Below are positions 10,397-26,731 of a DNA stretch of 64,000 nucleotides, in pieces (positions within the stretch are counted from its first letter, which is position 1; every line of letters starts with the position of its first letter). Both the position numbers and the translations under genes were made by a program. The DNA is taken from contig JBOIDC010000004.1 in the NCBI GenBank assembly GCA_050740315.1, positions 4,918-68,917 of the forward strand. Reading direction: 5' to 3'. The notes under the pieces are model-generated. The model saw only the letters and a program-made list of their open reading frames with translations. It searched no databases and was not told where the DNA came from. This DNA comes from Gammaproteobacteria bacterium (GTDB lineage: Bacteria > Pseudomonadota > Gammaproteobacteria > JACCYU01).

Positions 10397-12637
10397 TCAG
10401 ATAATGCTGATGGCGGTTGCAGCGCTGGGCCGGGCGCGCCCGATAACGCACGCCTGCCGGTAACCCAGTTCACGCAGTTCGGCGATGCAAGCAGTGGCCT
10501 CATCGGGCGGCACGGCGGCCAGCAGCCCGCCTGATGTCTGGGGATCGAACAGCAGTGGCCACGCCGGGTGAGTGCGTACCGTATCGGCGGCCGTTACGCT
10601 CTGCTCCAGGCGCGCATTCTGCGGCTGCAAAGAGCTAAAAATGCCGGCCGCGACACACTCCCGCGCGCCTTCCAGCAAGGGTAATGCCCGCAGCTCGATG
10701 TCGGCGCCCAGCCCCGACGGCCGCAGCAACGCCAGCAAATGGCCGATCAGACCGAAACCGGTCACGTCGGTGCAGGCGCTGGCGTGATGCGCGCGCAGAC
10801 AATCGGCCGCCTGCGCGCTGGACTGACGCATCATGGCCACGGCCAGGTCGATCCAGCGGCCGTGCGCCCGATGGCGCATGTCAGCGGCGAACAGGGCGCC
10901 GGTGCCGAGCGGTTTGGTCAGGATCAATACCTGTCCGGGCGCCAGCATACGACGGCGCGCGAGATCGTCGGCGTCGATCATGCCGGTCACGGAAAAACCG
11001 ATCCCAAGCTCGGCGCCTTCGCCGGAGTGACCGCCCAGCAACGCGGCGCCGGCAGTGTCCAAAGTGCGCATCGCGCCGGCCATCAACTGATAGAGCTGTT
11101 CCTCCATTACGCTCTCGGCGGCGTAAGGCAAAGTCGCCAGGGCCAGGGCCGAGTGCGGCCGCGCGCCCATGGCGTAGAGATCGCTCAACGCGTGATTGGC
11201 CGCGATCTCACCGAGCACGAATGGATCGTTGATAAAATCGCGGAAGTAATCAATGGATTGCACCAGCTTCACGCCCGCGGGCGGCGTGAATACCGCCGCG
11301 TCGTCCATGTCCTCCAGGCCAATATCGACGCCCTCGCCTGTTCTTTTGGCGAGGCGTTTCAACACCCGTTTAAGCACCGCGTCGCCGACCTTGGCGCCGC
11401 AACCGCCGCAGCGCATCGCGGGCTTGCGCGCGAAATCGACATCCGCTTCGCCGTGCGCTCCGCTGGTAGCGCTACGCGGCTCGCGCATCGCCGGCAAGTC
11501 GTTGTATTTCGACATCCAGCGCCGGTCGATCCAGTCCTTGACTCGCCACAGCCAGCCGCCCGCGGCATACAACCTGCCGCGCGAGGCCACGGCATAGCGA
11601 TTGCCGGTGCTGATCAACGCGAGCGCGCGCGTTTGCGGCCGGTAACGCTTGAGCCGGCGGTGCTCATGGTAGCGGCGCAGATTGCTTGCCAGCACCGCGC
11701 CCTGCTTGACCGCGTAGACGCCGGACTTGGGGTGCGGCGTCTCCATCGAACCGGCCACGTCCCCCGCCGCGAACACGTTGGCGTGCGACGTCGATTGCAG
11801 GCGCGCATCGATCCGGATGAAGCCGCGTGCGTCGAGATCCAGGCCGGTTGATTCAAGCCAATTTGGCGCGGCGACCGCCGTGGCCCACATGACGAAATCG
11901 GCGGCGATCGCGCGCCCGCTCTCGCAGCGCAATCCCGGCGGTTCTACGGCGGTGACGCACTCGCGGGTAATGACCTCAATGCCCCGCGTGGCGAGCACCT
12001 GCACGAAACGAGCGCGCACGCGGCGGTTGTGTTCTGTCAGGATTTGCGTTTGGTCAGTGACGAGCCGCGAACTGCACCGCGTTTCATCAAGTCCTTCCCG
12101 GAGCAAGCCGTGTTGCAACGCCAATATCAACTCGACGCCGCCCGCGCCGCCACCCACAACGGCAATGTCGAGGCGGCCGTTGCGGGCTTGCGCCATGCGA
12201 CATAGTTCACGGCAACCACTGAGCAAAACGTCGACCGGCTTGACCGGAAACACGCGCGCGGCTCGTTCGTCAGCCGGCGGCACGGCGGGCTGCGCGCCGA
12301 TGTTGAGCGACAGAAAATCGTAATGCAGCGGCGGCCTGCCGGTTATGAGCAGACGTTGCTTTTCAGGTTCTAGCGATTCAGCCTCGGCCTGAACAAAATC
12401 GGCGCCCGCGAAGCGCGCCAGCCGCCGCAGATCGATATGACAGGCATCAAAATCGTAATGACCGGCGATCAACCCCGGCAGCATGCCCGAATACGGCGCA
12501 TAGGTAGCGCGCGAGACGAGCGTGAGCCTGAGCCCGGGCGCGGGCCGCATGCCAAAGTGTTTGAGCACGGCCACGTGGCTGTGGCCGGCTCCCGCGAGCA
12601 CCAGATGACGGCGCGCGGGCGTTTTGGCATCGTTCAC
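10397..12637 (-). CDS. selD: Bifunctional pyridine-nucleotide-disulfide oxidoreductase (NADH-dehydrogenase-like) / selenide, water dikinase SelD fusion. The likely start is GTG at 12637.
   Basis: N-terminal HLVLAGAGHSHV Rossmann motif and GDVA FAD motif (~430 aa). C-terminal half matches SelD (MRCGGCGAKV..., DAAV, TDVTGFGL, DPQTSGG); Cys rather than Sec in the active-site loop. Confidence 0.85.
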   Translation of the reverse strand: MNDAKTPARRHLVLAGAGHSHVAVLKHFGMRPAPGLRLTLVSRATYAPYSGMLPGLIAGHYDFDACHIDLRRLARFAGADFVQAEAESLEPEKQRLLITGRPPLHYDFLSLNIGAQPAVPPADERAARVFPVKPVDVLLSGCRELCRMAQARNGRLDIAVVGGGAGGVELILALQHGLLREGLDETRCSSRLVTDQTQILTEHNRRVRARFVQVLATRGIEVITRECVTAVEPPGLRCESGRAIAADFVMWATAVAAPNWLESTGLDLDARGFIRIDARLQSTSHANVFAAGDVAGSMETPHPKSGVYAVKQGAVLASNLRRYHEHRRLKRYRPQTRALALISTGNRYAVASRGRLYAAGGWLWRVKDWIDRRWMSKYNDLPAMREPRSATSGAHGEADVDFARKPAMRCGGCGAKVGDAVLKRVLKRLAKRTGEGVDIGLEDMDDAAVFTPPAGVKLVQSIDYFRDFINDPFVLGEIAANHALSDLYAMGARPHSALALATLPYAAESVMEEQLYQLMAGAMRTLDTAGAALLGGHSGEGAELGIGFSVTGMIDADDLARRRMLAPGQVLILTKPLGTGALFAADMRHRAHGRWIDLAVAMMRQSSAQAADCLRAHHASACTDVTGFGLIGHLLALLRPSGLGADIELRALPLLEGARECVAAGIFSSLQPQNARLEQSVTAADTVRTHPAWPLLFDPQTSGGLLAAVPPDEATACIAELRELGYRQACVIGRARPSAATAISII

Positions 12638-12677
12638 ACGCTGGATTATTCGATCCGGACGCCGCCGGCATTCATGA

Positions 12678-13160
12678 TCAGTAGGCGGGCTTTTCGCTGC
12701 GCAGAAACAGCAGCGCGCCCGACGGCCTTTCCGCCGCGCCATGCGGCAGCCCCCTGGGCGCGAAATGATAGTCGCCGGCTTTCAATATCACGCCTTCTCC
12801 GAGATGCAGTTCGCCCTCCAGCACCAGACATTCCTCGTCGGCCACGTGCACGTGCGCGGGCAGCCGCGCGCCAGGCTCGCGCCGCAGCCGGAACGATGTC
12901 GCGCGCGCGGCACTGATCAATAACCAGGTGTGCGGACGGCCGCGCTTGCCGTCGCATTTCGCGGCATGGCGCCAGACCTGCGGAAACACGTCGATCACGA
13001 CATCTTCCGCCATATCCGGCTATTTGGTGGTGGCCAGCGCGACCGTAAACGCGCGGCATGGTCGCCTCGTAAAACGCATTGAAGGCGTCCCTGTCGCGGC
13101 GCGCAATCCGGTCGATGAGCAGCGCGTAGTTTTCATCCGCCGCTCCGCCGTGACGCGGGC
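12678..13160 (-). pseudogene. Degraded ECF sigma factor / ChrR-type anti-sigma remnant: sigma region-2 fused to an anti-sigma cupin domain, with a frameshift
   Basis: ADENYALLIDRIARRDRDAFNAFYEATMPRVYG (sigma-70 region 2.1) lies in one frame. AEDVVIDVFPQVWRHAAKCDGKRGRPHTWLLISAARA (region 2.2-2.4) lies in another and runs directly into a cupin (HVHVADEECLVLEGEL...GDYHFAPRGLPHG). Sigma region 4 and the anti-sigma zinc domain are absent. Confidence 0.55.
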
Positions 13161-13535: not shown

Positions 13536-14930
13536 ATGGCGCTGTGGAAACCCGACCCGACCTTTTATCCCTCCCCCCGCATGGCGATGCAGGCGCCACC
13601 CGAAACGCTGGCGTACGTCGCAGCCTTCAATCCGACGCCTGATGGCCGCCCGGATGCGATGACCGTGGTGGACCTGGCGCCCGACTCGTCCAGCTATGGC
13701 CAGATCGTCGGCCGCACCGAGATGCCGAACGCCGGCGATGAACTGCATCACTTCGGCTGGAACGCATGCAGCTCGGCGCTATGCCCGTACGCGCCGCACC
13801 CGCACATCGAGCGGCGTTATCTGGTGGTGCCGGGGCTCCGCTCGTCGCGCATCCATATCATCGATATCAAGCCTGATCCCCGCAATCCGAAGCTCGTCAA
13901 GACCATCGAGCCGGAAGACGTTTTCAAACGCGCGCCGTATTCACGCTTTCATACGATCCATTGCGGGCCGGAGGGCATCTACATCAGCGCGCTGGGATCG
14001 CAGGACGGTGATGGGCCGGGCGGCATCTTTCTGCTGGATCACTTCTCGTTCGACGTGCTGGGCCAGTGGGAAATGGAGCGCGGCCCGCAGTATCTGGCCT
14101 ACGACTTCTGGTGGCATCTGGCGCACGACACGATGATTACCAGCGAATGGGGCACGCCGAACATGATCGAGAACGGTCTGGTGCCGGATCTGCTGCTGAA
14201 CGGGAAATATGGCCGCCACGTGCACATCTGGGATTTGCGCCGGCGGCGGCACGTGCAGGCGCTCGATCTGGGCGCGGAGCAGCAACTGGTGCTGGAATTG
14301 CGCGCCGCGCATGATCCCACCAGGACATATGGTTTCGTCGGCGTGGTGATCTCGCTCAAAGACCTGTCGAGTTCGATCTGGCTCTGGCATCGCGACAACG
14401 GCGAGTGGAAAATCCAGAAGGTCGTCGAGATTCCCGCCGAATCGGCCGAACCTGAAAACCTGCCGCCGTTGCTGCAAGGCTTCAAGGCAGTGCCGCCGCT
14501 GGTCACCGACATCAATCTGTCACTTGACGATCGGTGGCTGTACGTCTCGTGCTGGGGCACGGGCGAGCTGCGGCAGTATGACGTATCCGATCCGTTCAAA
14601 CCCGAGCTCACCGGTTCGGTGCATCTGGGCGGCATCGTGCGCCGCACGCCGCATCCCAAAAAACCAGATCAACCTTTGAACGGCGCGCCGCAGATGGTGG
14701 AGGTGAGCCGCGACGGCAAGCGCGTGTATTTCACCAACTCGCTGTATCACGCCTGGGACGAGCAGTTCTATCCGGAGGGCATGCAGAGCTGGATGGTGAA
14801 GCTCGATGCGAATCCCGCCGGCGGCCTCAGGATCGATCCGGACTTCTTCGTAGCGTTCCACGGCTACCGCGCACACCAGATCCGCCTGGACGGCGGCGAC
14901 TGTTCTTCGGATTCTTATTGCTATCCGTGA
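13536..14930 (+). CDS. Selenium-binding protein SBP56 family (methanethiol oxidase MtoX / SELENBP1 homologue)
   Basis: 464 aa with the family hallmarks recalled from SELENBP1: DELHHFGWNACSS, HCGPEG, LSLDDRWLYVSCWGTGELRQYD, C-terminal GGDCSSD. An AAGGAGG ribosome-binding site precedes the ATG. Confidence 0.9.
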   Translation: MALWKPDPTFYPSPRMAMQAPPETLAYVAAFNPTPDGRPDAMTVVDLAPDSSSYGQIVGRTEMPNAGDELHHFGWNACSSALCPYAPHPHIERRYLVVPGLRSSRIHIIDIKPDPRNPKLVKTIEPEDVFKRAPYSRFHTIHCGPEGIYISALGSQDGDGPGGIFLLDHFSFDVLGQWEMERGPQYLAYDFWWHLAHDTMITSEWGTPNMIENGLVPDLLLNGKYGRHVHIWDLRRRRHVQALDLGAEQQLVLELRAAHDPTRTYGFVGVVISLKDLSSSIWLWHRDNGEWKIQKVVEIPAESAEPENLPPLLQGFKAVPPLVTDINLSLDDRWLYVSCWGTGELRQYDVSDPFKPELTGSVHLGGIVRRTPHPKKPDQPLNGAPQMVEVSRDGKRVYFTNSLYHAWDEQFYPEGMQSWMVKLDANPAGGLRIDPDFFVAFHGYRAHQIRLDGGDCSSDSYCYP

Positions 14931-15650: not shown

Positions 15651-16205
15651 ATGGCGTCGGTACGCAGAATCGATTGGCTGAGTGTCGAGGACTATCTCGT
15701 CGCGGAAGAGGTGGCCGAGGTACGGCACGAGTATGTCGCGGGCGCCGTGTACGCGATGGTGGGTGCCACCGCGCGCCATAATCGCATCGCCGTCAGGCTC
15801 GCATCTCGTCTGGAGTCGCACCTTGCTGGTTCGCCGTGCCAGACGTTCATCTCCGACATGAAAGTCTGCGCCGCCGACGCGTTTTATTACCCGGACGTAA
15901 TCGTGACCTGCCAACCCGTGGCGCCCGAGGCCGTTTACCTCACCGAACCCGTGCTGATCGCGGAAGTGCTATCGGAATCCACCGAAGGACGCGACCGGCT
16001 GGAAAAGTGGGCGGCTTATCGCGCGCTGCCGAGCCTGCGCGAATACGTGTTGATCGCCCAGGACCGCCCGGCCGTTGAAGTTTATCGGCGCAATGAAGAG
16101 GGCTGGGATCAAATCAGCCTGGATTCGGGTGAGACCATGGAACTCGTCTCGCTTGACCTCGAGGTTCCCCTAGACGAACTCTACGCCGGATTGCCGACGG
16201 CGTGA
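15651..16205 (+). CDS. Uma2-family (DUF820) endonuclease
   Basis: EYVAGAVYAMVGATARHNRIAVRLASRL... pattern typical of Uma2 PD-(D/E)xK proteins; 184 aa. Confidence 0.75.
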   Translation: MASVRRIDWLSVEDYLVAEEVAEVRHEYVAGAVYAMVGATARHNRIAVRLASRLESHLAGSPCQTFISDMKVCAADAFYYPDVIVTCQPVAPEAVYLTEPVLIAEVLSESTEGRDRLEKWAAYRALPSLREYVLIAQDRPAVEVYRRNEEGWDQISLDSGETMELVSLDLEVPLDELYAGLPTA

Positions 16206-16447
16206 TTGGGTCGGCTAACTTCCGCAACTGAAACTTGCCAAAGCAATTCAGGCTTCGAAGGACGAAACCGCATCGTTGCCGATTGCTATTTGATCCCGTA
16301 GCGTAGGGCTTGGCGCGGTTGCGGCGCACGCGGTTCAATCCTGACCTGCTTGGGGGATCGCTCTGATAACCAACGGAGGCGCGATTCTTCTCGTCTAAGG
16401 CACGACTACTTTTCAGAATTACTGTCTTCCGATGTACAATCGCGTCA

Positions 16448-17503
16448 ATGGGGCGCACGGTGTACACAAATATAAGAGAATCCCTGCGGGAGCTTTACTT
16501 AAAAGATAGCTGCTCTTGGCTGGTCGGCTTCAGCGGGGGCAAAGACAGTACCATGTTGGCATCTTTGGTGTTCAATGCGGTGCTTTCAGTGCCTACCAAC
16601 CAGCGCAAGAAGCCTGTCGCTATTCTTTGTACCGACACGCGCGTGGAGATTCCAGCCATTGTTGAGATGGTTGAAACAACGTTGGCGCGGATGCACAAGC
16701 ATTCCCAGCAGCACGATCTCAACATCGAAGTACACTTGCTAAAACCGCCACCCGAGCAATCGTTCTGGGTCAACATAATCGGCCGCGGCTATCCGCCACC
16801 TAACCGTAAGTTCCGCTGGTGTACGCAGCGCATGAAAATTGACCCCGTCACTGCTTTCGTTAATCAGCGGCTGGGACATTGGGGCGAGCACCTCGGCGCG
16901 CGTCGCGCCGAAAGCTCCACTCGCGGCCAAACGATGGCGGGGCGCGAAAACCGCAATGGCCTGCATCGCCATCCCGATTTGCCCCGCGTGTGGGTGTCCA
17001 ATCCCATTGAATTTCTCACTACCGAGGAAGTCTGGGCGTATCTGTTACAGAAAGCTAATCCTTGGGGCGGCGACAATCGTGCCCTTTATAAGCTCTACGC
17101 CAGCGCCTCCAATGGGGAATGTCCCATTCAAATCGACACCAGCACTCCAGCCTGCGGGCACTCACGATTTGGCTGCTGGACATGCACAGTCGTTGTGCGA
17201 GACAGGGCCAGCGAGGGCCTGCTCGCCGCCGGCGACGAACGCATGGAACATCTGCTCGGTTTTCGCGAGACGCTCCTAGAATTCCGTGATCCTGAAAATG
17301 GCTGGCGCGACAACCGCCGTATGAACGGTGCGCGGGCACCTGGCCCGCTGACAATTGAAGCGCGGCGTGAACTTCTTAAACGCCTGCTCAAATTACAAGA
17401 AGAAACAACCCTGCCACTAATTACTCCAGAAGAATTATTGTTAATTCAGCAAATGTGGAAGGCGGCGCGCGACCCGACGGCGGTCGTGGCGTTGCCCGAA
17501 TAA
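16448..17503 (+). CDS. PAPS-reductase-family PP-loop ATP pyrophosphatase, DndC/SspD-like (DNA sulfur-modification type)
   Basis: PP-loop FSGGKDST. C-terminal CGHSRFGCWTCTVV cysteine cluster reminiscent of the DndC/SspD family; 351 aa. Confidence 0.7.
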   Translation: MGRTVYTNIRESLRELYLKDSCSWLVGFSGGKDSTMLASLVFNAVLSVPTNQRKKPVAILCTDTRVEIPAIVEMVETTLARMHKHSQQHDLNIEVHLLKPPPEQSFWVNIIGRGYPPPNRKFRWCTQRMKIDPVTAFVNQRLGHWGEHLGARRAESSTRGQTMAGRENRNGLHRHPDLPRVWVSNPIEFLTTEEVWAYLLQKANPWGGDNRALYKLYASASNGECPIQIDTSTPACGHSRFGCWTCTVVVRDRASEGLLAAGDERMEHLLGFRETLLEFRDPENGWRDNRRMNGARAPGPLTIEARRELLKRLLKLQEETTLPLITPEELLLIQQMWKAARDPTAVVALPE

Positions 17504-17694
17504 TGAATGACCAGCGGGGTGCCATAATGAATGCCGACCTCAACAAATCAAACCGCTTGCGAGAAACGGAAAAGAAGGTCGCCCAGGAACTCGGCATTCG
17601 CCCCGACACGTTACGCCGCATGTTGGCGAAGGTGGAAGAATACAGTGAAAGTCACCGCGCCCAGGTTTGCCAGATGATTTGCTTAACATCCTAA
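17500..17694 (+). CDS. Small putative HTH DNA-binding protein
   Basis: Short ORF with AQELGIRPDTLRRMLAK helix-turn-helix-like segment. Weak; start uncertain (ATG 17500 or 17524). Confidence 0.3.
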   Translation: MMNDQRGAIMNADLNKSNRLRETEKKVAQELGIRPDTLRRMLAKVEEYSESHRAQVCQMICLTS

Positions 17695-17759
17695 AGGATG
17701 ACCTTTTCGCTCATGAAGAGCGCCGCCCGGTCTCCTCGCGCAATTAACCGCCATCTTGC

Positions 17760-18674
17760 GTGCACGTATTAACTCAAGAACGGCGCTGGCTTAAAGTCGC
17801 CGCGAACCTCAGGGTTGACCGCAAGCACAATATCGCCCCCCACAAGCCGCTTTTGCTATTGGTCGTTGTAGGGCTTGCCGAAGAAGGAAAACTCGCGCGG
17901 CCAGTCTTAGCGCTGACCGGCGAGCTCACATTCCGTTTTCTTGCATTCTGGACAATCGTCGCCAACCGCCGCTCACAGCGACCGGACATTCGCCTGCCGT
18001 TCTATCATCTCCATAACGACGGTTGCTGGACGCTGCTAGACGTCGAAGGAACGACTACTAGCGAACGTAGCCGTGCAGTTACCGCGCAGCTTGACGCACA
18101 GTTCCACGCCTGCCTGCACAATCCCGACTTCCGCGAGCAGTTTCGAAGAATCCTGATCGCGAGGTACTTTACCGACGCCGGCGAACGCGCCGCTCTTTAC
18201 GACTTGACTGACCTGCCAGCTCCGCCCGATGCCATCGAAGAAGCGGACGCCAACCTTTACGTCGAGTCGCGGAGGCGAGGGCGCGAAGCGCGCTTCCGGC
18301 TGACCGTCGTACCGGCCTACAACTACACCTGTGCACTTACCGGTTATCGCTGCGTTACGGTAAATGCCGGCAGCATCGTGGACGCTGCTCACATCCACCA
18401 GTTCGCTGACAGTCGCAACAACTACCCGCAAAACGGTATTGCGCTCTGCAAGAACGCTCACTGGCTTTTCGATCAAGGTCTGTGGTCGCTTACAGACGAC
18501 TACGAGATTATTGTCGCCACACACCGCTTCCATGAGTCTGGAGATAGCGCGCTGCTGCTAGCCCGAATGGCGGGCCATCGCATTCTGCTTCCCGGCAAGC
18601 GAGACTATTGGCCTGACAAAGCGTACTTGGCGTGGCACCGACAACATAGGTACATCAAAGAAAAGACCGAATGA
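17760..18674 (+). CDS. HNH endonuclease with ~190-aa N-terminal uncharacterised (possibly modified-DNA-sensing) domain
   Basis: C-terminal HNH motif: CALTGYRC...DAAHIHQFADSRNNYPQNGIALCKNAHWLFDQGLW; 304 aa. Confidence 0.8.
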   Translation: MHVLTQERRWLKVAANLRVDRKHNIAPHKPLLLLVVVGLAEEGKLARPVLALTGELTFRFLAFWTIVANRRSQRPDIRLPFYHLHNDGCWTLLDVEGTTTSERSRAVTAQLDAQFHACLHNPDFREQFRRILIARYFTDAGERAALYDLTDLPAPPDAIEEADANLYVESRRRGREARFRLTVVPAYNYTCALTGYRCVTVNAGSIVDAAHIHQFADSRNNYPQNGIALCKNAHWLFDQGLWSLTDDYEIIVATHRFHESGDSALLLARMAGHRILLPGKRDYWPDKAYLAWHRQHRYIKEKTE

Positions 18675-18681
18675 TGGAATT

Positions 18682-21599
18682 ATGAGCATCGTTCCAAAAC
18701 ATCGTGGAGCTTCTTTTCACAAGTGTGATCTTCAAGTCCATACGCTCAGGGATGCGAATTGGAATGGGCCCTTTCATCGGCTGAATGACCGAGTAGCTTT
18801 TGCTCAGGCGCTGGTTGCCGACTGCCGGCGCAAGAGCATCGAAGCGATTGCGATCACGGACCATCACGATCTGTGCCTTTGGAGAATTATTCACGATGCT
18901 GCTCAGAATGAGCAGAAGCCGGCTGGTTCGGCAAACCAAGAAGAGGCTTCCCCTGTCGTTTTTCCTGGTGTTGAGCTCACCTTGTCCAACCCCGCTTGCC
19001 AAGCATTGCTGATACTCGATCCAGACTTGACTGACAAGACCCTAAACTACATTTGGGGCGCTCTCGGAGCGACTCCCTCGGGCGTGGACGAGGAAAAGAC
19101 AACTCAGACGGTTGCACTGCCCCTTAACAAGTCCATTGCAACGATCGCCCAAGCGCTCTCCCAAATTCGGCTTAACCCTGAGGAAGCAGATCCAAACAAG
19201 TTCAGATCGCTTAGAGGAAAATTCATATTGTTACCGAATGTGAAGTGTGGTGGACATAAGACGATCATGCGAAAAGGTAACCAGGCGGCTTATACCACGA
19301 TGCCGTTTGTGGGAGGCTACATTGAGGGATGCGAGTATTCATCAATTAATGTGGGAGACTGCAATATTCTTGAAGGACGAGTACAAGCTTGGGGATCAAA
19401 GAGTGTCGCCGTATTTCAGACCTCAGACTGCCGCGAGGCGAAAGTTGTCACTATCGATGGCAATAAGCACACCGATTTCATCAATCTCGGCAAGTGGCCG
19501 ACGTGGGTGAAATGGGCACAACCGTCAACGGAAGCCTTGCGACAGGCATGCTTGGCAAGGCAGTCACGGATCAGCCATACCGAGCCCAGCTACCCTCTTC
19601 TGCAGATCGTGGGGGTGAAGGTGAGTGACAGCCAGTTCCTCGGTCCAGTGGAACTCGGTCTCAGCCCGCAGTTCAATGCTTTTATCGGCGGGCGAGGCAC
19701 CGGTAAATCCTCGTTGATCGAGTACATTCGGTGGGCACTCTGCGATGACCCTGTGGAAGTTTCCGAAATGGTGGAGCTTCCAAATTTTCAAAAGCGCAGG
19801 AAAGCCCTGGTGGAAGCGACACTCAAACCATCCGGAGCGAAAGTGACTGTGTTTTACAAGAAAAACGAGGTCATCTACAAAATTGAAAGGACTATTACCG
19901 CCAAGGAGGACGCCATCGTGGTTGTGGATCCCTCTGGGGCGTCGCAGCAGATGTCGTCGGCTCAAGCTCGCAGACAATTTCCGGTTGTATCGTATGCCCA
20001 GAAGCAGCTAAGTTGCGTGGGTACTCTGCCGGACGAAATTAAACGGCTCATTACAGATCCTATCAGTGAGCGTCTGGCGCAGATTCAGGATCGAATTGAG
20101 ACCTCCATCCTTCCACAAATTAAAGAGCAGCGCGCAAGAGAACTACGTCTCGCCAGCCTGAACACACAGCTTGCCGACATCGCTACATCGCTCAAGGACA
20201 TAAAAGATCAGATTCACGCGCTTGAGATACAATTGCAGGATCTCGCGCCAGAGCAGCAGAGCATCATCTCGTCGCATGAGCTGCTGAGTCAGCAACATCA
20301 GTGGGTGAATCGCTCGGCGGAACTCCCGAGCAAGGTAGCAGAACTCTTGTTGCAGATGCGCCATCAGGTAAGTGCGCTAGGCAAGATTGATCTGCCCGAT
20401 GCCCTACCCAACTCGATACCGAACTCGATCCAAGTCGACGCGATCTCGGCGTCTGCCAACGCCTATGTGAAGAGAGTGCTGGATCAGTTAGATGCCTTGA
20501 TCGCTGATGCGCAATCCGGCAGCTGGCTCAACAAAGCAGATCGCCAAGCCTTAGAGCAACTCCAAAAAAAGCGTACGGTGCTCACCAACGGGAATACAAC
20601 GAATGCGTCAAAACGAGCGCGAAAAACCAGACGCAGATGGAGGAGATTCAAAAGCTCAACAAACAAGTCGGTGAACTCGAAGCCAAGCAGTCAGCGCTAG
20701 AAGCGGAGCGCAAGACTCTTATGGCAGTCTTTGACCGATTTGCTGACACGCCGTGGAAGGCTTTTATGGACGCGGTGCGTGAGCGCGCGAACGTCTTGAG
20801 GGACCAGTGCACCATCATTGGCGGGCAGGCTCAGTACGAATTCAAGCCGCACCTCGCTTTTTGTGGTGATGATCGTCAGGTCCGCGAGTCACTGTATAGC
20901 TTGGTGCAAAACAGAAACGTCAGAGACAGCGATCAGAAAGTAAGAGACTTGGCAGCTATTGTTACCTCTGCGGATCACCCGCTTCAGCGGTGGCGAGAGG
21001 TGGTGGCTGAGCTGGATGCGCTTCTGGCAAGCAAGGGCTCTAACGTACTGCCGCAGGCGCCACTATTTACAAGCTCAGGTTTCACGACAGCTAATCTTGA
21101 ATCAATTCGAAACGGGGTCACACAGGACGCGTTGGAGCAAATCCGTTTCTTGAACATCGACGATCGAATCGAATTCGTCTTTCGCATGGGCAAAAAGACA
21201 GATGGATCGGATAACTACATTCCTTTTGATTCTGCATCACCAGGACAGCAGGCTACGTGTCTGCTTCGCACGTTACTCGCGCAATCAGGTGCGCCCCTGC
21301 TGATAGATCAGCCCGAAGAAGATCTTGATAACGAGCAGATCCACCTGCTTTCCGAGCAAATTGCGGAAACCAAGCACAACAGGCAAATGCTGTTTGTAAG
21401 CCACAATGCAAATATCGTCGTCAACGGAGATGGGGAACTTATAGCCTGTTTCTGCTACCGCGACCCTAACGACAACACCCGCGGGAAGATCGAGCCGGTC
21501 GGCTCTATTGACTACGCTCCTGTGCGCGAAACTATTACATCAGTAATGGAAGGGGGCCGCCGGGCATTCGAATTACGCAAAGAAAAATATGGTTTTTGA
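18682..21599 (+). pseudogene. PHP-domain phosphoesterase fused to SMC/ABC-type coiled-coil ATPase (PplA-like / DndD-like), split by a frameshift around 20560-20640
   Basis: N-terminal PHP metal-ligand pattern (CDLQVHT...AIAITDHHD). Walker A FNAFIGGRGTGKSSL at ~aa 335; long coiled coil. The ABC signature SPGQQ, Walker B LLIDQPEEDLD and H-loop FVSHNANI lie in a second ORF (20637-21599) in a different frame. An A7 run sits at 20562-20568. Confidence 0.7.
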
Positions 21600-21740: not shown

Positions 21741-21989
21741 ACTATGCCGTACTCGCGAGCTGACGAACATGCAATAACTCGCTGGATGTCAGCGGTTCGA
21801 TCTGAGATTCGCGCATGGTGACCACCGCAACGGTCTCCCCCACGGCGTTGAACACTTCCAAACTATAACCCGGTCCTGCTCAGATCGCCCCGGATGGTAT
21901 TCAACCACAGTCGCCACGTCTCCGGCGCGAAATCTATGCTCTGGCAAGTCCGTTTTCAGTGCTACTCGGGTAAATAGCTGGTATTTCAT
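21741..21989 (-). pseudogene. DUF4926-like small protein, frameshifted
   Basis: MKYQLFTRVALKTDLPEHRFRAGDVATVVEYHPG in one frame. GYSLEVFNAVGETVAVVTMRESQIEPL continues in another frame after an in-frame stop. Confidence 0.4.
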
Positions 21990-22001
21990 GTCTTGTCCAG
22001 A

Positions 22002-22322
22002 TTAAAGGGTGATGAACTTGGTCTTGCCGGTTCCTTCTTCAGTCATCCAAATCGTCGCGACGCGGAGAACATCGCCATTTGGTCCAGTTATGGCGCCGCG
22101 AATCATATACTTCGGACCATACTCCGTCTGATCGATCAATTCGGCTTCAATCGACAGCAGTTGCTCGCGTATATCATCGAGGAGTCTGTGTGAATTTTCG
22201 AGCGTGTAACCCGCCCGAGCTAATAACGCTGATTTGGCATCCGCTGACCGCCATTGAAGAAGATGGCTTGTAACCTTTTCGGTGGCAATGAGGGCACAGG
22301 TGGCAACCTCATCGGCCCTATC
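22002..22322 (-). CDS. DUF6883-like protein (partner of DUF4926; putative toxin-antitoxin-like pair); start codon unclear
   Basis: Translation ...ENSHRLLDDIREQLLSIEAELIDQTEYGPKYMIRGAITGPNGDVLRVATIWMTEEGTGKTKFITL matches the DUF6883 C-terminal pattern. The ORF is open right up to the stop of the upstream desulfurase gene, with no canonical in-frame start. Confidence 0.4.
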   Translation of the reverse strand, partial: DRADEVATCALIATEKVTSHLLQWRSADAKSALLARAGYTLENSHRLLDDIREQLLSIEAELIDQTEYGPKYMIRGAITGPNGDVLRVATIWMTEEGTGKTKFITL

Positions 22323-23453
22323 TCAGCCACGAAGGTCCTGAGCCGCTTGCTTCACGACAGCCGCAGTCAAATCAATCTCGTGAGCCTGCTTCATAGCGTT
22401 GAGTGAAAAACGAACCATTTGCCGTGCGGCCGGCTGATTCGGCTTCATTGCCTTAACAACATGCGACGGTTCGTCGGAATCAGCCAAGCAAGCCGACCCT
22501 CCCGACGCGCAAATACCCGCTTGGTCAAATAGTAGCAACAATGCTTCGGATTCAACGCCGTGGAAGGTAATATTGGTCGTGTTTGCCAGCCGCTGAATCT
22601 TATGCCCATTCAGCTCGGTATCCGGTACCGAGTCCAGAATACTTTCCTCTAAAGTATCGCGGAGCGGGCGCACTTTCTTCTCATAACTCGGCAAGCTCTT
22701 ACGCGCGAGTTCGGCGGCTCTGCCCATGCCGACGATCAAGGCGACGTTTTCCGTACCGCCACGCCGATTACGCTCCTGGTGTCCGCCGTGGACAAACGGC
22801 AAAAACGGTGTCTTACGGCGGACGTATAATGCGCCTATTCCCTTCGGTGCGTGGAATTTGTGGCCGGTGAGCGACAAATAATCGGTCTGCACCTCGCGCA
22901 CATCAATATCGATTTTACCAACGGCCTGTACCGCGTCGCAGTGGTATAAGACCCCTCGCGAGCGGCAAATGTCAGCTATCGCGTTCACCGGGAATAGCAC
23001 TCCGGTTTCATTATTCGCCCACATGAGCGAGACCACAGCCGTTTCATCCGAAATCGCGTTCGCCAAATCCGCCAGCTTCAAGACACCGTCGTAATCCACC
23101 GGCAGATAAGTTACCCGATAGCCCTCGCGCTCGAGCGCCATACAGTAGTTCAGCACCGAGGAATGCTCGACCGCTGATGTGACGATGTGCCGTTTGCTCG
23201 GATTGGCTTTCAGCGCCGCAAGGATGGCCGAATTATTGCTCTCCGTCGCGCAAGACGTGAAAACGATCTCCAGCGGGTGTGCTCCGATCAGCTCTGCGAC
23301 CCGCGCCCTGGCCGTCTCGACCGCCGTCTTCAGCTTCGACCCAAACTTATAGCTGCTGGATGGATTGCCCCACTCAGATGTGAAGTAAGGCATCATCGAG
23401 TCCAGCACTTCCGGGGACACCGAAGTAGTTGCATTACTATCAAGGTAAATCAT
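22323..23453 (-). CDS. Cysteine desulfurase (class V aminotransferase, IscS/NifS/DndA-like), stand-alone
   Basis: MIYLDSNATT N-terminus, PLP-lysine region SLTGHKFHAPKGIGALYV, active-site SGGSAC. No iscU/iscA/hscBA follow. Confidence 0.9.
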   Translation of the reverse strand: MIYLDSNATTSVSPEVLDSMMPYFTSEWGNPSSSYKFGSKLKTAVETARARVAELIGAHPLEIVFTSCATESNNSAILAALKANPSKRHIVTSAVEHSSVLNYCMALEREGYRVTYLPVDYDGVLKLADLANAISDETAVVSLMWANNETGVLFPVNAIADICRSRGVLYHCDAVQAVGKIDIDVREVQTDYLSLTGHKFHAPKGIGALYVRRKTPFLPFVHGGHQERNRRGGTENVALIVGMGRAAELARKSLPSYEKKVRPLRDTLEESILDSVPDTELNGHKIQRLANTTNITFHGVESEALLLLFDQAGICASGGSACLADSDEPSHVVKAMKPNQPAARQMVRFSLNAMKQAHEIDLTAAVVKQAAQDLRG

Positions 23454-23745
23454 ATTCCCCTTACAAGTAATTAATCCAAACTCGGTCGACGGCACCCGCA
23501 GCTCGCCCCCGAGCTCACGGTCGGCCGCGACCTCGGATTCGATGGGCAGTTTATGTCAGGGACACCTTGGCCCTGATCCTAAACCCATTGCGCGAGTGCC
23601 GACGGCGTTCAGCGTCGAACGGGGCCTCAGTGCCCCTATTAGCCTCGGCATAGTTTATCCCACGTTCGGTGGCCTATTTGAGCGAATGCAATACGGTCAT
23701 GGGCATTGAAAACTCACGGTACTAGCCGCAGTTCACCTCCGCAAC

Positions 23746-24390
23746 TCAAGCGATACCCTTCATGGCTCTCGCCGTCATCAATCCCCACAGCCAGTTGATC
23801 TTGTAGCGTTCGATCTCCACCTGGGCGTGCCCGGTTTCCTGCAAAAGTCGCGCGCATTCCCGCTCCGCGTAAGTCTTGAAATGCGCGCGGCTGAACCAGC
23901 GCAGATACAGATCGCAGAGACGGCAAGCCAGGTAGTCATCGCACCAGTCAGTGATGATCAGCCGGCCGCCCGGGCGCAGCACGCGATCCATCTCGTGCAA
24001 CGCCTCGACGGGCTGTCGGATGTAGTGAAATACGTTGCACGAGACGACGACATCGAATTGTTGCGCTTCGAAGGGTAGCCGCTCCGCCCAGCCTTCACGC
24101 AGATCGACCGAGTCCGAAAGCCGCCGCCGCGCAACATCGAGCATCTCCCGCACGGGATCGACGCCGGCCAATTGCGCGCGCGGGTGAGTACCAATAAGGC
24201 GATCGAGCAAAACGCCGGTACCGCAGCCGACATCGAGCACGCGGTCGCGTGGGCCCAGCCGCAGACGCGCCAGTGTCTCTTCGATCGTGGCCTCGATATA
24301 GAACCGCCACCTCTTGTCGTAATCGCTTGCGAGTCGTGCGTATTCCTCGACTATCGGCTCGCGCGATCGACGCCGCCGGGGCTTAGCCAT
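23746..24390 (-). CDS. Class I SAM-dependent methyltransferase (UbiE/COQ5-like, type 11)
   Basis: VLDVGCGTGV motif I, DVVVSCNVFHY, LRPGGRLII. Confidence 0.8.
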   Translation of the reverse strand: MAKPRRRRSREPIVEEYARLASDYDKRWRFYIEATIEETLARLRLGPRDRVLDVGCGTGVLLDRLIGTHPRAQLAGVDPVREMLDVARRRLSDSVDLREGWAERLPFEAQQFDVVVSCNVFHYIRQPVEALHEMDRVLRPGGRLIITDWCDDYLACRLCDLYLRWFSRAHFKTYAERECARLLQETGHAQVEIERYKINWLWGLMTARAMKGIA

Positions 24391-25189: not shown

Positions 25190-26731
25190 ATGCGACTATT
25201 AAAAATTCCGACTGCCAATACGCGCAGGGCGAGTCCCAGGGTATTGGCGGCGGCCTTCGGCGTAGGGCTTGGGGTCGCCGTGTCGGGCGCGGCGCTCGCC
25301 AAGGACTACCCAACCGTCACAGTGGTTGATCCGTCGCCGGTGAACTGGCTTTGGATAACGTGGAACACCATGGAAGAAGCGGTGCGCGTGGACTACAACG
25401 GCCACACGCAACCCGCGCTGGCGGAGAGCTGGGAATGGAAAGATAACCAAACGCTGACGCTAGACATGCGCGACGACGCGGTGTTTCAGGACGGCAGCGC
25501 GTTCGATCCCGCGGTGTTCAAGCGCAGCTTCGACGAGGTGCAGAAGTGGGAAAACCCGCATCCGCCGGGCGCCTGGCTGAATTTCTCCAAGCAGGCCAGC
25601 ATGGAGACGCCGGATGATGACACGGTGGTGTTCAACACCGCGATGGTCGACGGCACCACCATCACCAAACTGCGCGGCATGCACGTCGGCAGCCAGAAGT
25701 TCTGGGGGCAGGGCGGTTTCAACACCGCCGAAGGCTCATCCGAAGGGAATTGGTGAGTCATCAAAGAACCCGGTCCGTGGGGGACTGGGCCATTTGAACT
25801 GGTAGCAGGTACGTCGTTGCTCGACAAGCGTTCTCCCGAAGTTGTGCTGGAGCCCAATGAAGAATACTGGAATCCGGCGCGTAAACCGACGGTGCGCGTG
25901 GTGTTCGACAATGTTATTCCGAAGGCCGAGGCCGTGAAAGACGTCGGCAGCGCGGACGGCGAGATCGATATTGTCACTGAACTGACACCGGCCGAGGCCC
26001 AGCAGGTGGAAGACAGCGATGCCGCAAATGTGGTCGCGAGCGACTCGAAGACCGTGCTGCTCGGGGTCTTCAATCAGACCAGCGGCGATTCCAAATGGAA
26101 TGACGTCAATCTGCGCAAGGCGGTCAACTACGCGGTGGATCGGCAAGGCGTCATCGATGACGCGATGATGGGTTACGGCAATCTCATGCCGGCCACCATC
26201 CTCGAAGGGAATTTCGGTTACAACGATAGTCTGGAGCCTTATGCGCATGACCCGGAGCAGGCCAGGCGGCTTGCGAAGGACGCCGACAAGACCGTCACCA
26301 TCGTGACCGACGAAGCGCACAAGGGCGTGGCCGATGCCGTGGCCGCGGATCTGAACGCCGCCGGTTTCGACGCGACCGTTAAGGTCGGAGAGCCTGCAGG
26401 CGAGTGGGACATCTGGCTAGTCGAGCACTTCGACTGGTCGCCGGAGTTCCCCGCCGCCGTGGTGCATCGCGAGTTCTTCGGCGACACGGGCGGGTTCCTC
26501 AAGTCACCGGGCGACAAGCAACTACAGGGCTTGATCGATCAGGCGATGAGTACCGTCGATAAGGACGAGCAGGAAGAAATCACGCAGGCGATCGAGAAAC
26601 ACATCTACGATCACGCCGATGCGCTGTTGCTGTTCGCGCCGCAAAAACTCTACGCGGTGCGCGACGGCGTGGACTTCACGCCTTACAAGTCCACGGTGCT
26701 GGAACTGGCGGAGACCATGGTGGACGAGTAA
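25190..26731 (+). pseudogene. ABC transporter substrate-binding protein, family 5 (peptide/nickel/opine type) with a single in-frame TGA at 25754-25756. Either a nonsense pseudogene or, less likely, a UGA-Sec readthrough.
   Basis: AGGAGG ribosome-binding site then ATG 25190. Signal peptide; family-5 motifs (ALAESWEW..., GTGPFEL, EPNEEYW). The reading frame is continuous across the TGA, and ORFs 25148-25756 and 25817-26731 are in the same frame. Total ~513 codons, normal for the family. Confidence 0.6.

What the first reader, a model, noticed from the sequence alone, without database searches (positions are those of the whole stretch)
16448..18674. DndC/SspD-like ATP pyrophosphatase paired with an HNH nuclease and a small HTH ORF
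The PP-loop protein has SGGKDS plus the C-terminal RFGCWTCT cysteine motif seen in DNA-sulfur-modification enzymes, but is only 351 aa, which is shorter than DndC. It is followed by a possible 60-aa HTH protein and a 304-aa HNH enzyme. The HNH N-terminal ~190 aa could be a modification-sensing domain: sulfur-binding-domain + HNH type IV enzymes recognising phosphorothioate DNA exist. A modification-enzyme / modification-dependent-nuclease pairing would be unusual and self-toxic unless regulated.
Basis: partly seen in the sequence, partly recalled or inferred. Interest (0 to 1): 0.7.

Follow-up and report, generated by a model that had tools for sequence, protein, structure and literature searches.

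The report
Sulfur-reading nuclease replacing dndD beside dndC
A nuclease that reads sulfur-modified (phosphorothioate) DNA sits exactly where an essential gene of the sulfur-writing Dnd machinery should be, next to a damaged copy of the writer enzyme DndC; the same swap recurs in dozens of bacteria, which had not been described.

Summary
The two large ORFs are real. The "small HTH ORF" is not a gene. The PP-loop protein is DndC, not SspD or CysH. It is only 351 aa because two 1-nt deletions throw its last ~85 residues out of frame, and the "HTH ORF" is that out-of-frame tail. It also has a unique 3-aa deletion.

The 304-aa protein is an intact two-domain SBD-HNH nuclease. Its N-terminal domain matches solved sulfur-binding domains bound to phosphorothioate (PT) DNA.

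dndD, dndE and dndB are absent, and the HNH gene occupies the dndD slot. That removes the self-toxicity paradox. The most likely role is type IV restriction of PT-modified incoming DNA.

The arrangement is recurrent:
- 44 of 80 metagenomic loci of this DndC clade carry it.
- 29 of 80 genomic HNH loci, from about 8 phyla, carry it.
- dndD/dndE/dndA remnants end at many different breakpoints.
- Variable defence genes lie between HNH and dndA.
- HNH never co-occurs with an intact dndD in this clade.

Unexpectedly, HNH-linked dndC keeps its catalytic motifs and shows dN/dS of about 0.05-0.13. The pair may therefore be a functional unit. This is a new variant of known systems.

The parts
15651..16205 (+). 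Uma2-family putative endonuclease at the left edge of the low-GC island. It may belong to the flank rather than to the system.
   Evidence: PF05685 Uma2, E=2e-31. PADLOC PDC-S03, 84.7 bits. GC drops from about 0.63 to 0.52-0.56 between 16 and 24 kb.
16412..16440 (+). The only sigma-70-like promoter match upstream of dndC (TTCAGA-17-TACAAT). There is no match between dndC and HNH.
   Evidence: Weak: 2 sites were found against 4.7 expected in shuffles.
16448..17747 (+). dndC gene carrying three lesions: a 9-nt in-frame deletion (AIL) at 16888|16889, a 1-nt deletion at about 17473-17476, and a 1-nt deletion at about 17650-17663. The annotated product (16448-17503, 351 aa) keeps the PP-loop and the Fe-S cysteines.
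   Evidence: TIGR03183 at 353.5 bits, above the 290.4 cutoff, covering profile positions 3-362 of 447. The closest homologues are 432-436 aa at 84-86% identity. tblastn of P0005 gives three collinear pieces in three frames. The deletion is unique among 120 homologues. The sequence is identical in three assemblies.
17504..17694 (+). It is DndC residues ~346-404 read out of frame. Its ATG overlaps the stop of the 351-aa ORF (TAATG at 17501-17506).
   Evidence: 69% identity to P0005 residues 346-404. No Pfam, NCBIfam or PADLOC hit. Called as a 63-aa gene in the public annotation.
17760..18674 (+). Intact SBD-HNH nuclease (304 aa). The sulfur-binding domain spans residues ~1-150 (HK at 17841-17846, LP at 17994-17999). 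A helical linker follows, then the HNH_2 domain (H211 at 18390-18392, N225 at 18432-18434, H234 at 18459-18461). The gene starts 12 nt after the true dndC stop, in the position that dndD holds in intact clusters.
   Evidence: PF13391, E=4e-11. NF045808 'phosphorothioated DNA-binding restriction endonuclease', full-length match at 129.8 bits, below the 180 cutoff. 8h0l at E=1.8e-6. AF2 model with Foldseek hits 8h0l, 7ccd and 7ccj. PF26340. Only 7 deviations at columns that are at least 90% conserved, against a family mean of 5.3. Junction alignment.
18682..21599 (+). TrlF/Ppl-like PHP + ABC (SMC-like) ATPase defence gene, split by a frameshift into 18682-20700 (672 aa) and 20637-21599 (320 aa). 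It is variable cargo, not part of the conserved unit.
   Evidence: NF045780 TrlF covers profile positions 1-621 and 644-944 of 944 on the two ORFs (249.7 and 180 bits, cutoff 350). PADLOC Ppl. Frame change shown. A relative was found in only one other locus, L096, where it is 914 aa and intact.
21789..22139 (-). Small DUF4926 ORF (21789-21989) and a truncated DUF6883 remnant (22002-22139). DUF4926 lies beside dndA in several related loci.
   Evidence: DUF4926 lies next to dndA in L001, L004 and others.
22323..23495 (-). Intact DndA/NifS-type cysteine desulfurase (390 aa). It forms the right-hand end of the dnd-derived island.
   Evidence: PADLOC DndA 480.6 bits and SspA 478 bits. TIGR03402 NifS at 524.9 bits against a 530.75 cutoff, and TIGR03235 DndA at 388 bits. 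Same position and strand as dndA in intact clusters.

Best explanation
The region is a dnd (DNA phosphorothioation) operon in which an SBD-HNH nuclease gene has taken the place of dndD.

Shown:
- 16448-17747 is dndC with a 3-aa deletion and two frameshifts.
- 17760-18674 is an intact nuclease made of a sulfur-binding (PT-reading) winged-helix domain and an HNH_2 catalytic domain. It lies 12 nt after the dndC stop, where dndD starts in intact clusters.
- dndD, dndE and dndB are absent from the 64-kb window.
- A broken TrlF-like defence gene and a dndA-type cysteine desulfurase complete the low-GC island.

Inferred mechanism:
- Without DndD/DndE, and with DndC damaged, the host DNA carries no Dnd-type phosphorothioates.
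- The SBD-HNH protein is therefore harmless to the host.
- It acts as a type IV enzyme, like EcoWI and SprMcrA. The SBD docks on a backbone sulfur in incoming phage or plasmid DNA that was modified in a Dnd-positive host, and the HNH domain cuts nearby.
- It is probably transcribed from the dndC promoter.

Origin (inferred from about 160 related loci): SBD-HNH cassettes have repeatedly replaced the 5' part of dndD by recombination. The downstream dnd genes then decay by deletion, and the gap fills with other defence genes.

Not explained: in most related loci the adjacent dndC stays intact and constrained.
For: Identity of the parts.

Slot replacement:
- In intact clusters such as L004, dndC is followed 1-2 nt later by dndD, then dndE, dndB, and dndA on the opposite strand.
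- In 44 of 80 metagenomic loci of the same DndC clade, and in 29 of 80 genomic HNH loci from Nitrospirota, Verrucomicrobiota, Acidobacteriota, Binatia, delta-proteobacteria, Abditibacteria, Armatimonadota and others, HNH follows dndC directly.
- It is followed by remnants with more than 15 different breakpoints: DndD from residues 257, 265, 315, 336, 361, 375, 483, 530 or 578; DndE from residues 5, 178, 322, 457 or 463; and dndA cut back from its 3' end.
- The DndD remnants are separate ORFs that lack the N-terminal Walker A part.

Mutual exclusion: HNH with intact dndD occurs in 0 of 44 loci, while intact dndD occurs in 16 of 19 loci without HNH, p=2.6e-12.

Decay of the writer in HNH-linked loci: dndE is intact in 7, a remnant in 6 and absent in 36; dndA is intact in 18 and truncated in 22. 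In dndD-linked loci dndE is intact in 11 of 11 and dndA in 6 of 6.

Recombination: L146 and L149 are 99-100% identical across the last ~120 nt of dndC plus HNH, but only 84-93% and 75-85% identical in the flanking dnd sequence. L096 and L104 share the same dndC but carry different HNH clades. The states are interspersed on the DndC tree, with at least 18 changes.

HNH is functional at the sequence level: catalytic H/N/H and the SBD residues HK and LP are invariant or nearly so, omega is 0.06-0.14, and the window copy is not aberrant.

Published biochemistry: SBD-HNH enzymes cut PT-DNA and restrict dnd+ plasmids (PMC7461809). SBDHga, which has the same L-P cavity, binds PT (PMC10602919).
Against: - DndC linked to HNH is not decaying in most loci. 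All 53 non-redundant copies keep SGGKDS and the Cys motifs. dN/dS is 0.05-0.13, the same as in intact clusters. In one HNH clade dndC and HNH co-diverge (rho 0.86 for dN, median dS about 1). A pure 'dead writer' model does not predict this.
- In Planctomycetes, members of the same HNH family lie next to complete dndB/A and dndC/D/E clusters. The family is therefore not universally incompatible with PT writing.
- The window protein scores below the NF045808 cutoff (129.8 against 180), so it is not a close relative of the characterised enzymes.
- In the window, HNH starts with GTG, has no visible Shine-Dalgarno sequence, and has lost direct translational coupling to dndC. Its expression is uncertain.
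- The rest of the genome was not available, so dndD/E in trans cannot be excluded.
Confidence: 0.58

Rival explanations
1. dndC-SBD-HNH is a working two-gene phosphorothioate system. The DndC catalytic core, fed by DndA or IscS, still acts on DNA. The SBD-HNH protein has taken over the DNA-handling role of DndD/DndE, supplying binding and nicking much as the SspB nickase partners SspD. Alternatively, DndC marks DNA that the PT-activated nuclease then cuts, in a mark-and-cut or abortive-infection design. In the window the pair may be dead, or may survive as a naturally tolerated short DndC.
For: - dndC linked to HNH is under purifying selection with its catalytic motifs intact, while dndD, dndE, dndB and often dndA are lost.
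- HNH is translationally coupled to dndC, with 4-12 nt spacers and a DndC tail specific to each HNH clade.
- The C-terminal ~85 aa of DndC has been lost independently in HNH-linked loci: the window at residue 346, L028/L030 at residue 323, and a Verrucomicrobia clade with DndC ORFs of 356-473 aa (mostly under 400) that end just after the equivalent position. All keep the PP-loop and the CxxC motif.
- DndC-like enzymes are reported to write PT with partners other than DndDE: SspD, and BrxP in BREX type 4 (title and abstract of PMC11185695; BrxP hit).
- The same HNH family sits beside complete dnd clusters in Planctomycetes.
Against: - HNH and intact dndD are mutually exclusive in this clade, which points to incompatibility rather than partnership.
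- HNH persists without dndC: solo loci are nested inside dndC-linked clades.
- The same dndC pairs with HNHs that are only ~50% identical, which argues against tight co-adaptation.
- No DndC-HNH fusion appears among the 150 best of 5055 family representatives.
- dndA is truncated in about half of the loci.
- All characterised SBD-HNH enzymes are PT-dependent cutters, so writer and reader in one cell would be self-toxic.
- In the window, DndC carries three lesions.
Confidence: 0.27
2. Everything in the island, HNH included, is a decaying remnant with no current function in this organism.
For: - dndC has three lesions, the TrlF-like gene is frameshifted and DUF6883 is truncated.
- HNH has a GTG start, no Shine-Dalgarno sequence, and a broken coupling chain.
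- No separate promoter match was found.
Against: - The HNH ORF is full length.
- All family-invariant residues are present, and it has no more unusual substitutions than other members.
- dndA is intact.
- The TAATG overlap may allow reinitiation, which would keep ribosomes on the message until 66 nt before the HNH start.
Confidence: 0.1
3. The frameshifts are assembly errors, and the organism has a normal 430-aa DndC next to HNH.
For: Several other 'fragmented' dndC or dndA genes in related loci come from assemblies named MFD... (L022, L058, L081, L012, L041, L056). From my own recollection, not a tool result, these are long-read MAGs and therefore more prone to indel errors. All three frame changes in the window's island (two in dndC, one in the TrlF-like gene) are frame-shifting indels; for the two dndC sites single-base deletions were inferred from the sequence, and the TrlF indel type was not determined.
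Against: - The window, a second NCBI contig (CDICQX010000171.1) and a Logan k-mer assembly of SRR27067773 are 100% identical over all three sites.
- The two dndC deletions are not in homopolymer runs.
- The 9-nt in-frame deletion is not a typical read error.
Confidence: 0.05

Closest known systems
SBD-HNH phosphorothioate-dependent type IV restriction endonucleases (EcoWI, SprMcrA; NCBIfam NF045808)
   Same: Two-domain architecture of about 300 aa. The SBD fold is confirmed against solved SBD-PT-DNA complexes. The sulfur-cavity residues (HK and a central Pro) and the HNH motif are present (PMC7461809).
   Different: It scores below the NF045808 cutoff. It has the Leu-Pro cavity of the promiscuous SBDHga rather than Tyr-Pro. 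Lutz et al. reported that such enzymes are rarely (<3.6%) near dnd genes. This subfamily is dnd-linked in about half of its loci and sits inside the operon in place of dndD.
Canonical dndA/dndBCDE phosphorothioation cluster
   Same: It has dndC (family cutoff met) and a dndA-type desulfurase in the canonical positions and orientations. Related loci show every intermediate between the intact cluster and the window's state.
   Different: dndD, dndE and dndB are missing, and dndC is frameshifted, so the defining DndD-DndE core is absent. Rakesh, Aravind and Krishnan (PMC10853773) attribute absence of DndD/E to poor assemblies. Here the remnants show that the loss is genuine.
wHTH(SBD)+SAD/SRA+HNH nucleases encoded downstream of Dnd modification genes (PMC10853773); ScoMcrA
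   Same: A PT-reading wHTH fused to HNH and associated with dnd neighbourhoods. The Planctomycete relatives (L043, L076) fit that description.
   Different: There is no SRA/SAD domain, and 304 aa leaves no room for one. Here the nuclease does not accompany an intact writer; it replaces its ATPase.
DpnI / DpnII alternative cassettes of Streptococcus pneumoniae (own knowledge, not tested here)
   Same: A modification system and a modification-dependent nuclease appear as mutually exclusive alleles at one locus. They can be exchanged by recombination in shared flanks.
   Different: Here the left flank is itself a gene of the modification system (dndC), and it stays under selection. The evidence is comparative only.
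PT-sensing nucleases SspE and DndI (DUF262 + DUF1524 HNH)
   Same: A nuclease whose activity is governed by reading PT and which is encoded beside PT-writing genes (PMC11662687, PMC9646914).
   Different: There is no NTPase domain. Those systems need an intact writer.

Membership tests
DndC (TIGR03183, DNA phosphorothioation sulfurtransferase) | Family HMM score above the curated cutoff | tested here: met
   353.5 bits against a 290.4 cutoff. PADLOC DndC scores 383.9 bits.
DndC (TIGR03183, DNA phosphorothioation sulfurtransferase) | PP-loop SGGKDS and the conserved cysteines, including CxxC, for the [4Fe-4S] cluster | tested here: met
   SGGKDS at residue 29. Cysteines at 125, 225, 236, 243 and 246, in the motifs shared by 118-120 of 120 homologues.
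DndC (TIGR03183, DNA phosphorothioation sulfurtransferase) | Full-length protein including the C-terminal ~85 residues | tested here: not met
   Only profile positions 3-362 of 447 are in frame. The remainder lies in two other frames. A 3-aa deletion just before GARRAES is unique among the homologues.
DndC (TIGR03183, DNA phosphorothioation sulfurtransferase) | Operonic partners DndD (ABC ATPase) and DndE | tested here: not met
   tblastn with DndD, DndE and DndB from L004 finds nothing in the 64-kb window.
SspD (Ssp system PAPS-reductase-like enzyme) | Best match to the SspD model, with sspB/sspC neighbours | tested here: not met
   PADLOC SspD scores 36.7 bits on residues 25-143 only, against 384 bits for DndC. 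No SspB or SspC was detected among the island genes scanned.
SBD-HNH PT-dependent type IV restriction endonuclease | N-terminal sulfur-binding domain fold | tested here: met
   AF2 pLDDT is 78-95 over residues 1-150. The Foldseek top four hits are 8h0l, 7ccd and 7ccj (SBD with PT-DNA), probability 1.0, TM 0.67-0.71. phmmer finds 8h0l at E=1.8e-6. PF26340 is precomputed on the protein.
SBD-HNH PT-dependent type IV restriction endonuclease | Sulfur-cavity residues (HR/HK pair and Y/L-Pro) | tested here: met
   H28-K29 and L79-P80 align with PHK and LPYYHLH of SBDHga. They are invariant or at least 90% conserved in 75 homologues. Their role is taken from PMC10602919 and PMC7461809.
SBD-HNH PT-dependent type IV restriction endonuclease | Intact HNH catalytic motif | tested here: met
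   PF13391 HNH_2 at E=4e-11. H211, N225 and H234 are invariant in the family. The AF2 model of this domain has low confidence (pLDDT 33-42), so the evidence is from sequence only.
SBD-HNH PT-dependent type IV restriction endonuclease | NCBIfam NF045808 curated cutoff | tested here: not met
   129.8 bits against 180, although the alignment is full length (residues 12-295 against profile 5-280 of 284).
SBD-HNH PT-dependent type IV restriction endonuclease | Cleavage that depends on PT in the substrate | not testable with these tools
   Needs biochemistry.
SBD-HNH PT-dependent type IV restriction endonuclease | No functional cognate PT writer in the same cell | tested here: inconclusive
   There is no dndD/E in the window, and dndC is damaged. 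HNH and intact dndD are mutually exclusive in this clade. The rest of the genome was not seen, and Planctomycete relatives do coexist with full clusters.
wHTH+SAD(SRA)+HNH Dnd-associated nuclease / ScoMcrA type | SRA/SAD domain between the SBD and HNH | tested here: not met
   Residues 150-185 form a helical linker. There is no SRA hit in Pfam or PDB, and the TagI and ScoMcrA matches cover the HNH part only.
TrlF / Ppl PHP-ABC ATPase defence proteins | Single full-length protein above the family cutoff | tested here: not met
   Two ORFs score 249.7 and 180 bits against a 350 cutoff. Together they cover profile positions 1-621 and 644-944. The frameshift is shown.

The most novel reading that the evidence does not exclude
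dndC plus SBD-HNH is a previously unrecognised, self-sufficient two-gene phosphorothioate system. It has arisen repeatedly from dnd operons. A PT-reading nuclease replaces the DndD-DndE DNA-scanning module, and the DndC catalytic core stays active. DndC would either write PT with the nuclease as its DNA-targeting or nicking partner, or conditionally mark DNA for PT-activated cleavage.
Probability: 0.25. Interest if true: 0.85.

Novelty: new variant of a known kind. Interest (0 to 1): 0.62.

Why it matters
Both parts are known: DndC and SBD-HNH type IV enzymes. The architecture is not described in the papers I could find.

- The PT-reading nuclease sits inside the dnd operon, exactly in place of the essential dndD. 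This occurs in more than half of the sampled loci of a widespread DndC clade and across about eight phyla.
- This contradicts two published generalisations. One is that PT-dependent nucleases are rarely coupled to dnd genes (PMC7461809). The other is that absence of DndD/E reflects poor assemblies (PMC10853773).
- It gives a concrete picture of conflict, or alternation, between writing and reading the same epigenetic mark at one locus. That may help explain the sporadic distribution of dnd systems.
- It marks the dndC-dndA interval as a hotspot for defence genes.
- The retention of a catalytically intact, constrained dndC without DndD/E is a clear anomaly. It is directly testable with a two-gene construct.

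Tried and rejected
- SspD, CysH or QueC placement of the PP-loop protein: rejected. The DndC model is above its cutoff, SspD scores 36.7 bits, and the metabolic PAPS-reductase-type models score 16-44 bits.
- Small ORF as an HTH regulator: rejected. It has no family hit and is the DndC tail.
- Frameshifts as assembly error: unlikely, because three assemblies are identical.
- TrlF-like ATPase as a DndD substitute: rejected. It is frameshifted, and among 164 loci it occurs only in the window and in L096. Other loci carry unrelated cargo there: SIR2, GmrSD, Cap4, ABC-3C, QueC/DUF6884 and a methylase.
- HNH fused to the DndD remnant: no. HNH has its own stop, and the remnants are in varying frames.
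- DndC-HNH fusion proteins as Rosetta-stone evidence: none among the best 150 of 5055 representatives.
- Phage-borne cassette: only 1 hit in 2.9 million viral contigs.
- Extra relaxation of the DndC C-terminal domain in HNH-linked loci: not seen.
- Literature search for 'TrlF': only unrelated spectroscopy papers.
- AF2 model of the HNH core: low confidence (pLDDT 33-42), so it was not used.
- Biopython dN/dS timed out, so I replaced it with my own Nei-Gojobori code.
Full report
OBSERVATION

The window has a low-GC island (0.52-0.56, against 0.62-0.65 in the flanks) from about 16 to 24 kb. On the + strand it carries:
- a 351-aa ORF at 16448-17503;
- a small overlapping ORF at 17455/17504-17694;
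- a 304-aa ORF at 17760-18674;
- two ORFs at 18682-20700 and 20637-21599.

On the - strand there are small ORFs and a 390-aa ORF at 22323-23495.

The 351-aa protein has SGGKDS at residue 29 and RFGCWTCT at residue 240.

THE PP-LOOP PROTEIN IS DndC, AND IT IS BROKEN

It passes the curated DndC model: TIGR03183 at 353.5 bits against a cutoff of 290.4, and PADLOC DndC at 384 bits. SspD scores 36.7 bits, and the metabolic PAPS-reductase-type models score 16-44 bits. Only profile positions 3-362 of 447 are matched.

The nearest 119 homologues in the 5.8-billion-protein collection are 80-86% identical, and almost all are 429-441 aa long.

A tblastn of one of them (P0005, 436 aa) against the window gives three collinear pieces in three different frames:
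- residues 1-346 at 16448-17476;
- residues 410-436 at 17664-17744, followed by a stop at 17745-17747.

Reading the DNA, each frame change is explained by loss of a single base, and neither lies in a homopolymer run. There is also a 9-nt in-frame deletion that removes 'AIL' just before the GARRAES motif. It is unique among the 120 sequences.

The small ORF has no family hit. It is not a regulator gene.

The lesions are present in the window, in a second NCBI contig and in an independent Logan assembly of run SRR27067773. All are 100% identical across them.

THE HNH PROTEIN IS AN SBD-HNH ENZYME

- Pfam finds HNH_2 at residues 191-244.
- NCBIfam's 'phosphorothioated DNA-binding restriction endonuclease' model aligns over the full length, but at 129.8 bits, below its cutoff of 180.
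- The N-terminal 125 residues hit the solved sulfur-binding domain of Hga (8h0l) at E=1.8e-6. PHK aligns with PHK, and RLPFYHLH aligns with HLPYYHLH.
- An AlphaFold2 model built on 75 homologues is confident for residues 1-150 (pLDDT 78-95). Its four best Foldseek matches in the PDB are all SBD-PT-DNA complexes (8h0l, 7ccd, 7ccj; probability 1.0; TM 0.67-0.71).
- The collection's precomputed Pfam annotation lists PF26340 DNA-SBD_ScoMcrA on this very protein.
- There is no room for an SRA domain, and no hit to one.
- H28, K29, P80, H211, N225 and H234 are invariant in the family, and L79 is at least 90% conserved.
- The window copy has 7 deviations at columns that are at least 90% conserved, against a family mean of 5.3. 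It looks intact.

WHAT IS MISSING, AND WHAT ELSE IS THERE

tblastn with DndD, DndE and DndB from an intact cluster finds nothing in the 64 kb.

The two ORFs after HNH are the two halves of one TrlF/Ppl-like PHP + ABC ATPase, split by a frameshift. Next come a small DUF4926 ORF and a truncated DUF6883. Then comes an intact DndA/NifS-type cysteine desulfurase on the opposite strand.

COMPARISON WITH RELATED LOCI

An intact relative (L004, Nitrospira) reads dndC-dndD-dndE-x-dndB on one strand and DUF4926-dndA on the other. The closest intact dndC (P0005) is instead followed by a 301-aa HNH_2 gene, a 41-codon DndE remnant, DUF4926 and dndA.

I collected two samples:
- 80 genomic loci, found with the HNH family;
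- 80 metagenomic loci, found with DndC.

Results:
- In the DndC-anchored sample, 44 loci have HNH immediately after dndC, 30 have dndD (16 complete, 14 running off the contig), and 6 are unclear.
- In the HNH-anchored sample, 29 loci have dndC immediately upstream. They come from Nitrospirota, Verrucomicrobiota, Acidobacteriota, Binatia, delta-proteobacteria, Abditibacteria, Armatimonadota and others.
- Downstream of HNH lie dnd remnants with many different breakpoints: DndD from residues 257, 265, 315, 336, 361, 375, 483, 530 or 578; whole or partial DndE; and dndA eaten back from its 3' end.
- In some loci the first 65-75 codons of dndD remain between dndC and HNH.
- The DndD remnants are separate ORFs without the Walker A part. 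They are not fusions.
- Among non-redundant HNH-linked loci, dndE is intact in 7, a remnant in 6 and absent in 36. dndA is intact in 18 and truncated in 22.
- In dndD-linked loci both genes are always intact.
- HNH and an intact dndD never occur together in this clade: 0 of 44 against 16 of 19, p=2.6e-12.

HOW THE ARRANGEMENT AROSE

The HNH tree has at least six dndC-linked clades. Each has its own junction: a clade-specific DndC C-terminal tail followed by a 4-12 nt spacer. This mimics the TGAnnATG coupling of dndC to dndD. Within each clade, the right-hand breakpoints form a nested deletion series.

On the DndC tree the two states are interspersed. The Fitch minimum is 18 changes on 81 tips, against 23.5±1.8 for shuffled labels.

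Sliding-window identity shows mosaics:
- L146 and L149 are 99-100% identical from the last ~120 nt of dndC through HNH. They are only 84-93% identical in dndC and 75-85% in the dndD remnant.
- L096 and L104 share dndC at 90-98% but carry HNHs from different clades. The breakpoint lies about 100 nt before the dndC stop.
- The upstream flanks are unrelated.

So the cassettes spread by homologous recombination within dnd genes.

The space between HNH and dndA holds unrelated defence genes in different loci: PHP-ABC ATPase plus Schlafen, QueC/DUF6884/SIR2, GmrSD, Cap4, SIR2, ABC-3C and a methylase. The window's TrlF-like gene is one such cargo.

Other nucleases can also take the dndD slot: a methyltransferase-HNH_4 fusion in L106, and a YhcG nuclease in L101.

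MOST LIKELY MECHANISM IN THE WINDOW

With no DndD/E and a damaged DndC, the host DNA should lack Dnd-type PT. An SBD-HNH enzyme is then harmless to the host. It would cut DNA that arrives already phosphorothioated, as shown experimentally for EcoWI, SprMcrA and the SBD-containing Hga (PMC7461809, PMC10602919).

Lutz et al. suggested the same explanation for the rare dnd-linked cases they saw ('dnd gene cluster being mutated').

The mutual exclusion with intact dndD supports it.

The pattern resembles the alternative DpnI/DpnII cassettes of pneumococcus. That comparison rests on my own knowledge and is only an analogy.

WHAT DOES NOT FIT

If the writer were simply dead, dndC should decay like dndE and dndA. 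It does not.
- All 53 non-redundant HNH-linked DndCs keep the PP-loop and the cysteine motifs.
- Pairwise dN/dS is 0.05-0.13, the same as in intact clusters.
- In one HNH clade dndC and HNH have co-diverged to dS of about 1 (rho 0.86 for dN).
- Recombination with the pool of intact clusters could mimic part of this signal. It could not easily mimic the co-divergence.

The C-terminal ~85 residues of DndC have been lost independently at least three times in HNH-linked loci:
- in the window, at residue 346;
- in L028/L030, at residue 323;
- in a Verrucomicrobia clade, where DndC ORFs of 356-473 aa (mostly under 400) end just after the equivalent position.

In Planctomycetes the same HNH family lies beside complete dndB/A and dndC/D/E clusters. 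This matches the Dnd-associated HNH nucleases described by Rakesh, Aravind and Krishnan (PMC10853773).

These facts keep alive a second reading: DndC plus SBD-HNH is a functional two-gene unit. Against it:
- solo HNH loci are nested inside dndC-linked clades;
- HNH partners are interchangeable;
- no fusion proteins were found;
- dndA is often truncated.

CAVEATS

- The trees are neighbour-joining.
- dN/dS is pairwise Nei-Gojobori and saturates above dS of about 1.5.
- The 80-locus caps favour well-conserved hits.
- Many contigs are short.
- Several fragmented genes come from MFD-named MAGs, which I recall (not from a tool result) to be long-read assemblies, so they may be errors.
- The window's whole genome was not available.
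- No biochemistry was possible.

VERDICT

The components are known. The small ORF is an artefact of a frameshift. The window's copy is partly degraded.

The architecture is widespread and apparently undescribed: a PT-reading nuclease in place of dndD, beside a retained dndC. I rate it a new variant of a known kind, of moderate to high interest. The anomaly it raises is clear and cheap to test.

Noticed in passing
window 10397-12742 (-), 13536-14930 (+), ~26841-28793 (+): The island sits in a selenium-related neighbourhood. There is a 781-aa fusion of a pyridine-nucleotide-disulfide oxidoreductase with SelD-like AIRS domains, an SBP56 selenium-binding protein, and a SelB elongation factor.
   Followed up: no
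window 24167-24361 (inside the methyltransferase ORF 23746-24390, -): A second public assembly of the same population (L165) lacks about 195 bp here. The methyltransferase is called at 214 aa in the window and 132 aa there. It also hits the PADLOC 'mad2' model and selenoprotein-methyltransferase models.
   Followed up: partly
window ~25190-26731 (+): An SBP_bac_5 solute-binding protein is called as two adjacent ORFs of 188 and 304 aa. This may be another broken gene in this genome.
   Followed up: no
window 18682-21599 (+): A TrlF/Ppl-like PHP + ABC ATPase defence gene is split by one frameshift in its coiled-coil region. An intact 914-aa relative, followed by a Schlafen/AlbA_2-HATPase gene, lies in the same position in L096.
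   Followed up: partly
window 22002-22139 (-): A 45-aa ORF matches only the C-terminal 43 positions of DUF6883. It is a remnant next to DUF4926, possibly a decayed toxin-antitoxin-like pair.
   Followed up: partly
L106 4061-5803 (+); L101 9738-10904 (-): Other nucleases occupy or interrupt the dndD slot after an intact dndC: a 580-aa SAM-methyltransferase-HNH_4 fusion in L106, and a YhcG/DUF1016 PD-(D/E)XK nuclease after a 117-aa DndD stub in L101.
   Followed up: partly
L077 6270-9954: dndC is split into three pieces separated by two inserts of about 1.2 kb each, upstream of an intact HNH. These may be mobile-element or intron insertions. The assembly is an MFD-named MAG.
   Followed up: no
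L043 10001-18027; L076 9986-18390: In Planctomycetes the same HNH family lies tail-to-tail with dndB, next to an apparently complete dndA / dndC-dndD-dndE cluster. This is the opposite situation from the window.
   Followed up: partly
L146/L149, L115/L131, L096/L104 (upstream of dndC): Loci whose dndC genes are 84-99% identical in pairwise windows have unrelated sequence from about 100-200 nt upstream of dndC. The whole dnd-derived unit therefore sits in different genomic contexts and is probably mobile. No integrase or repeat was looked for.
   Followed up: no
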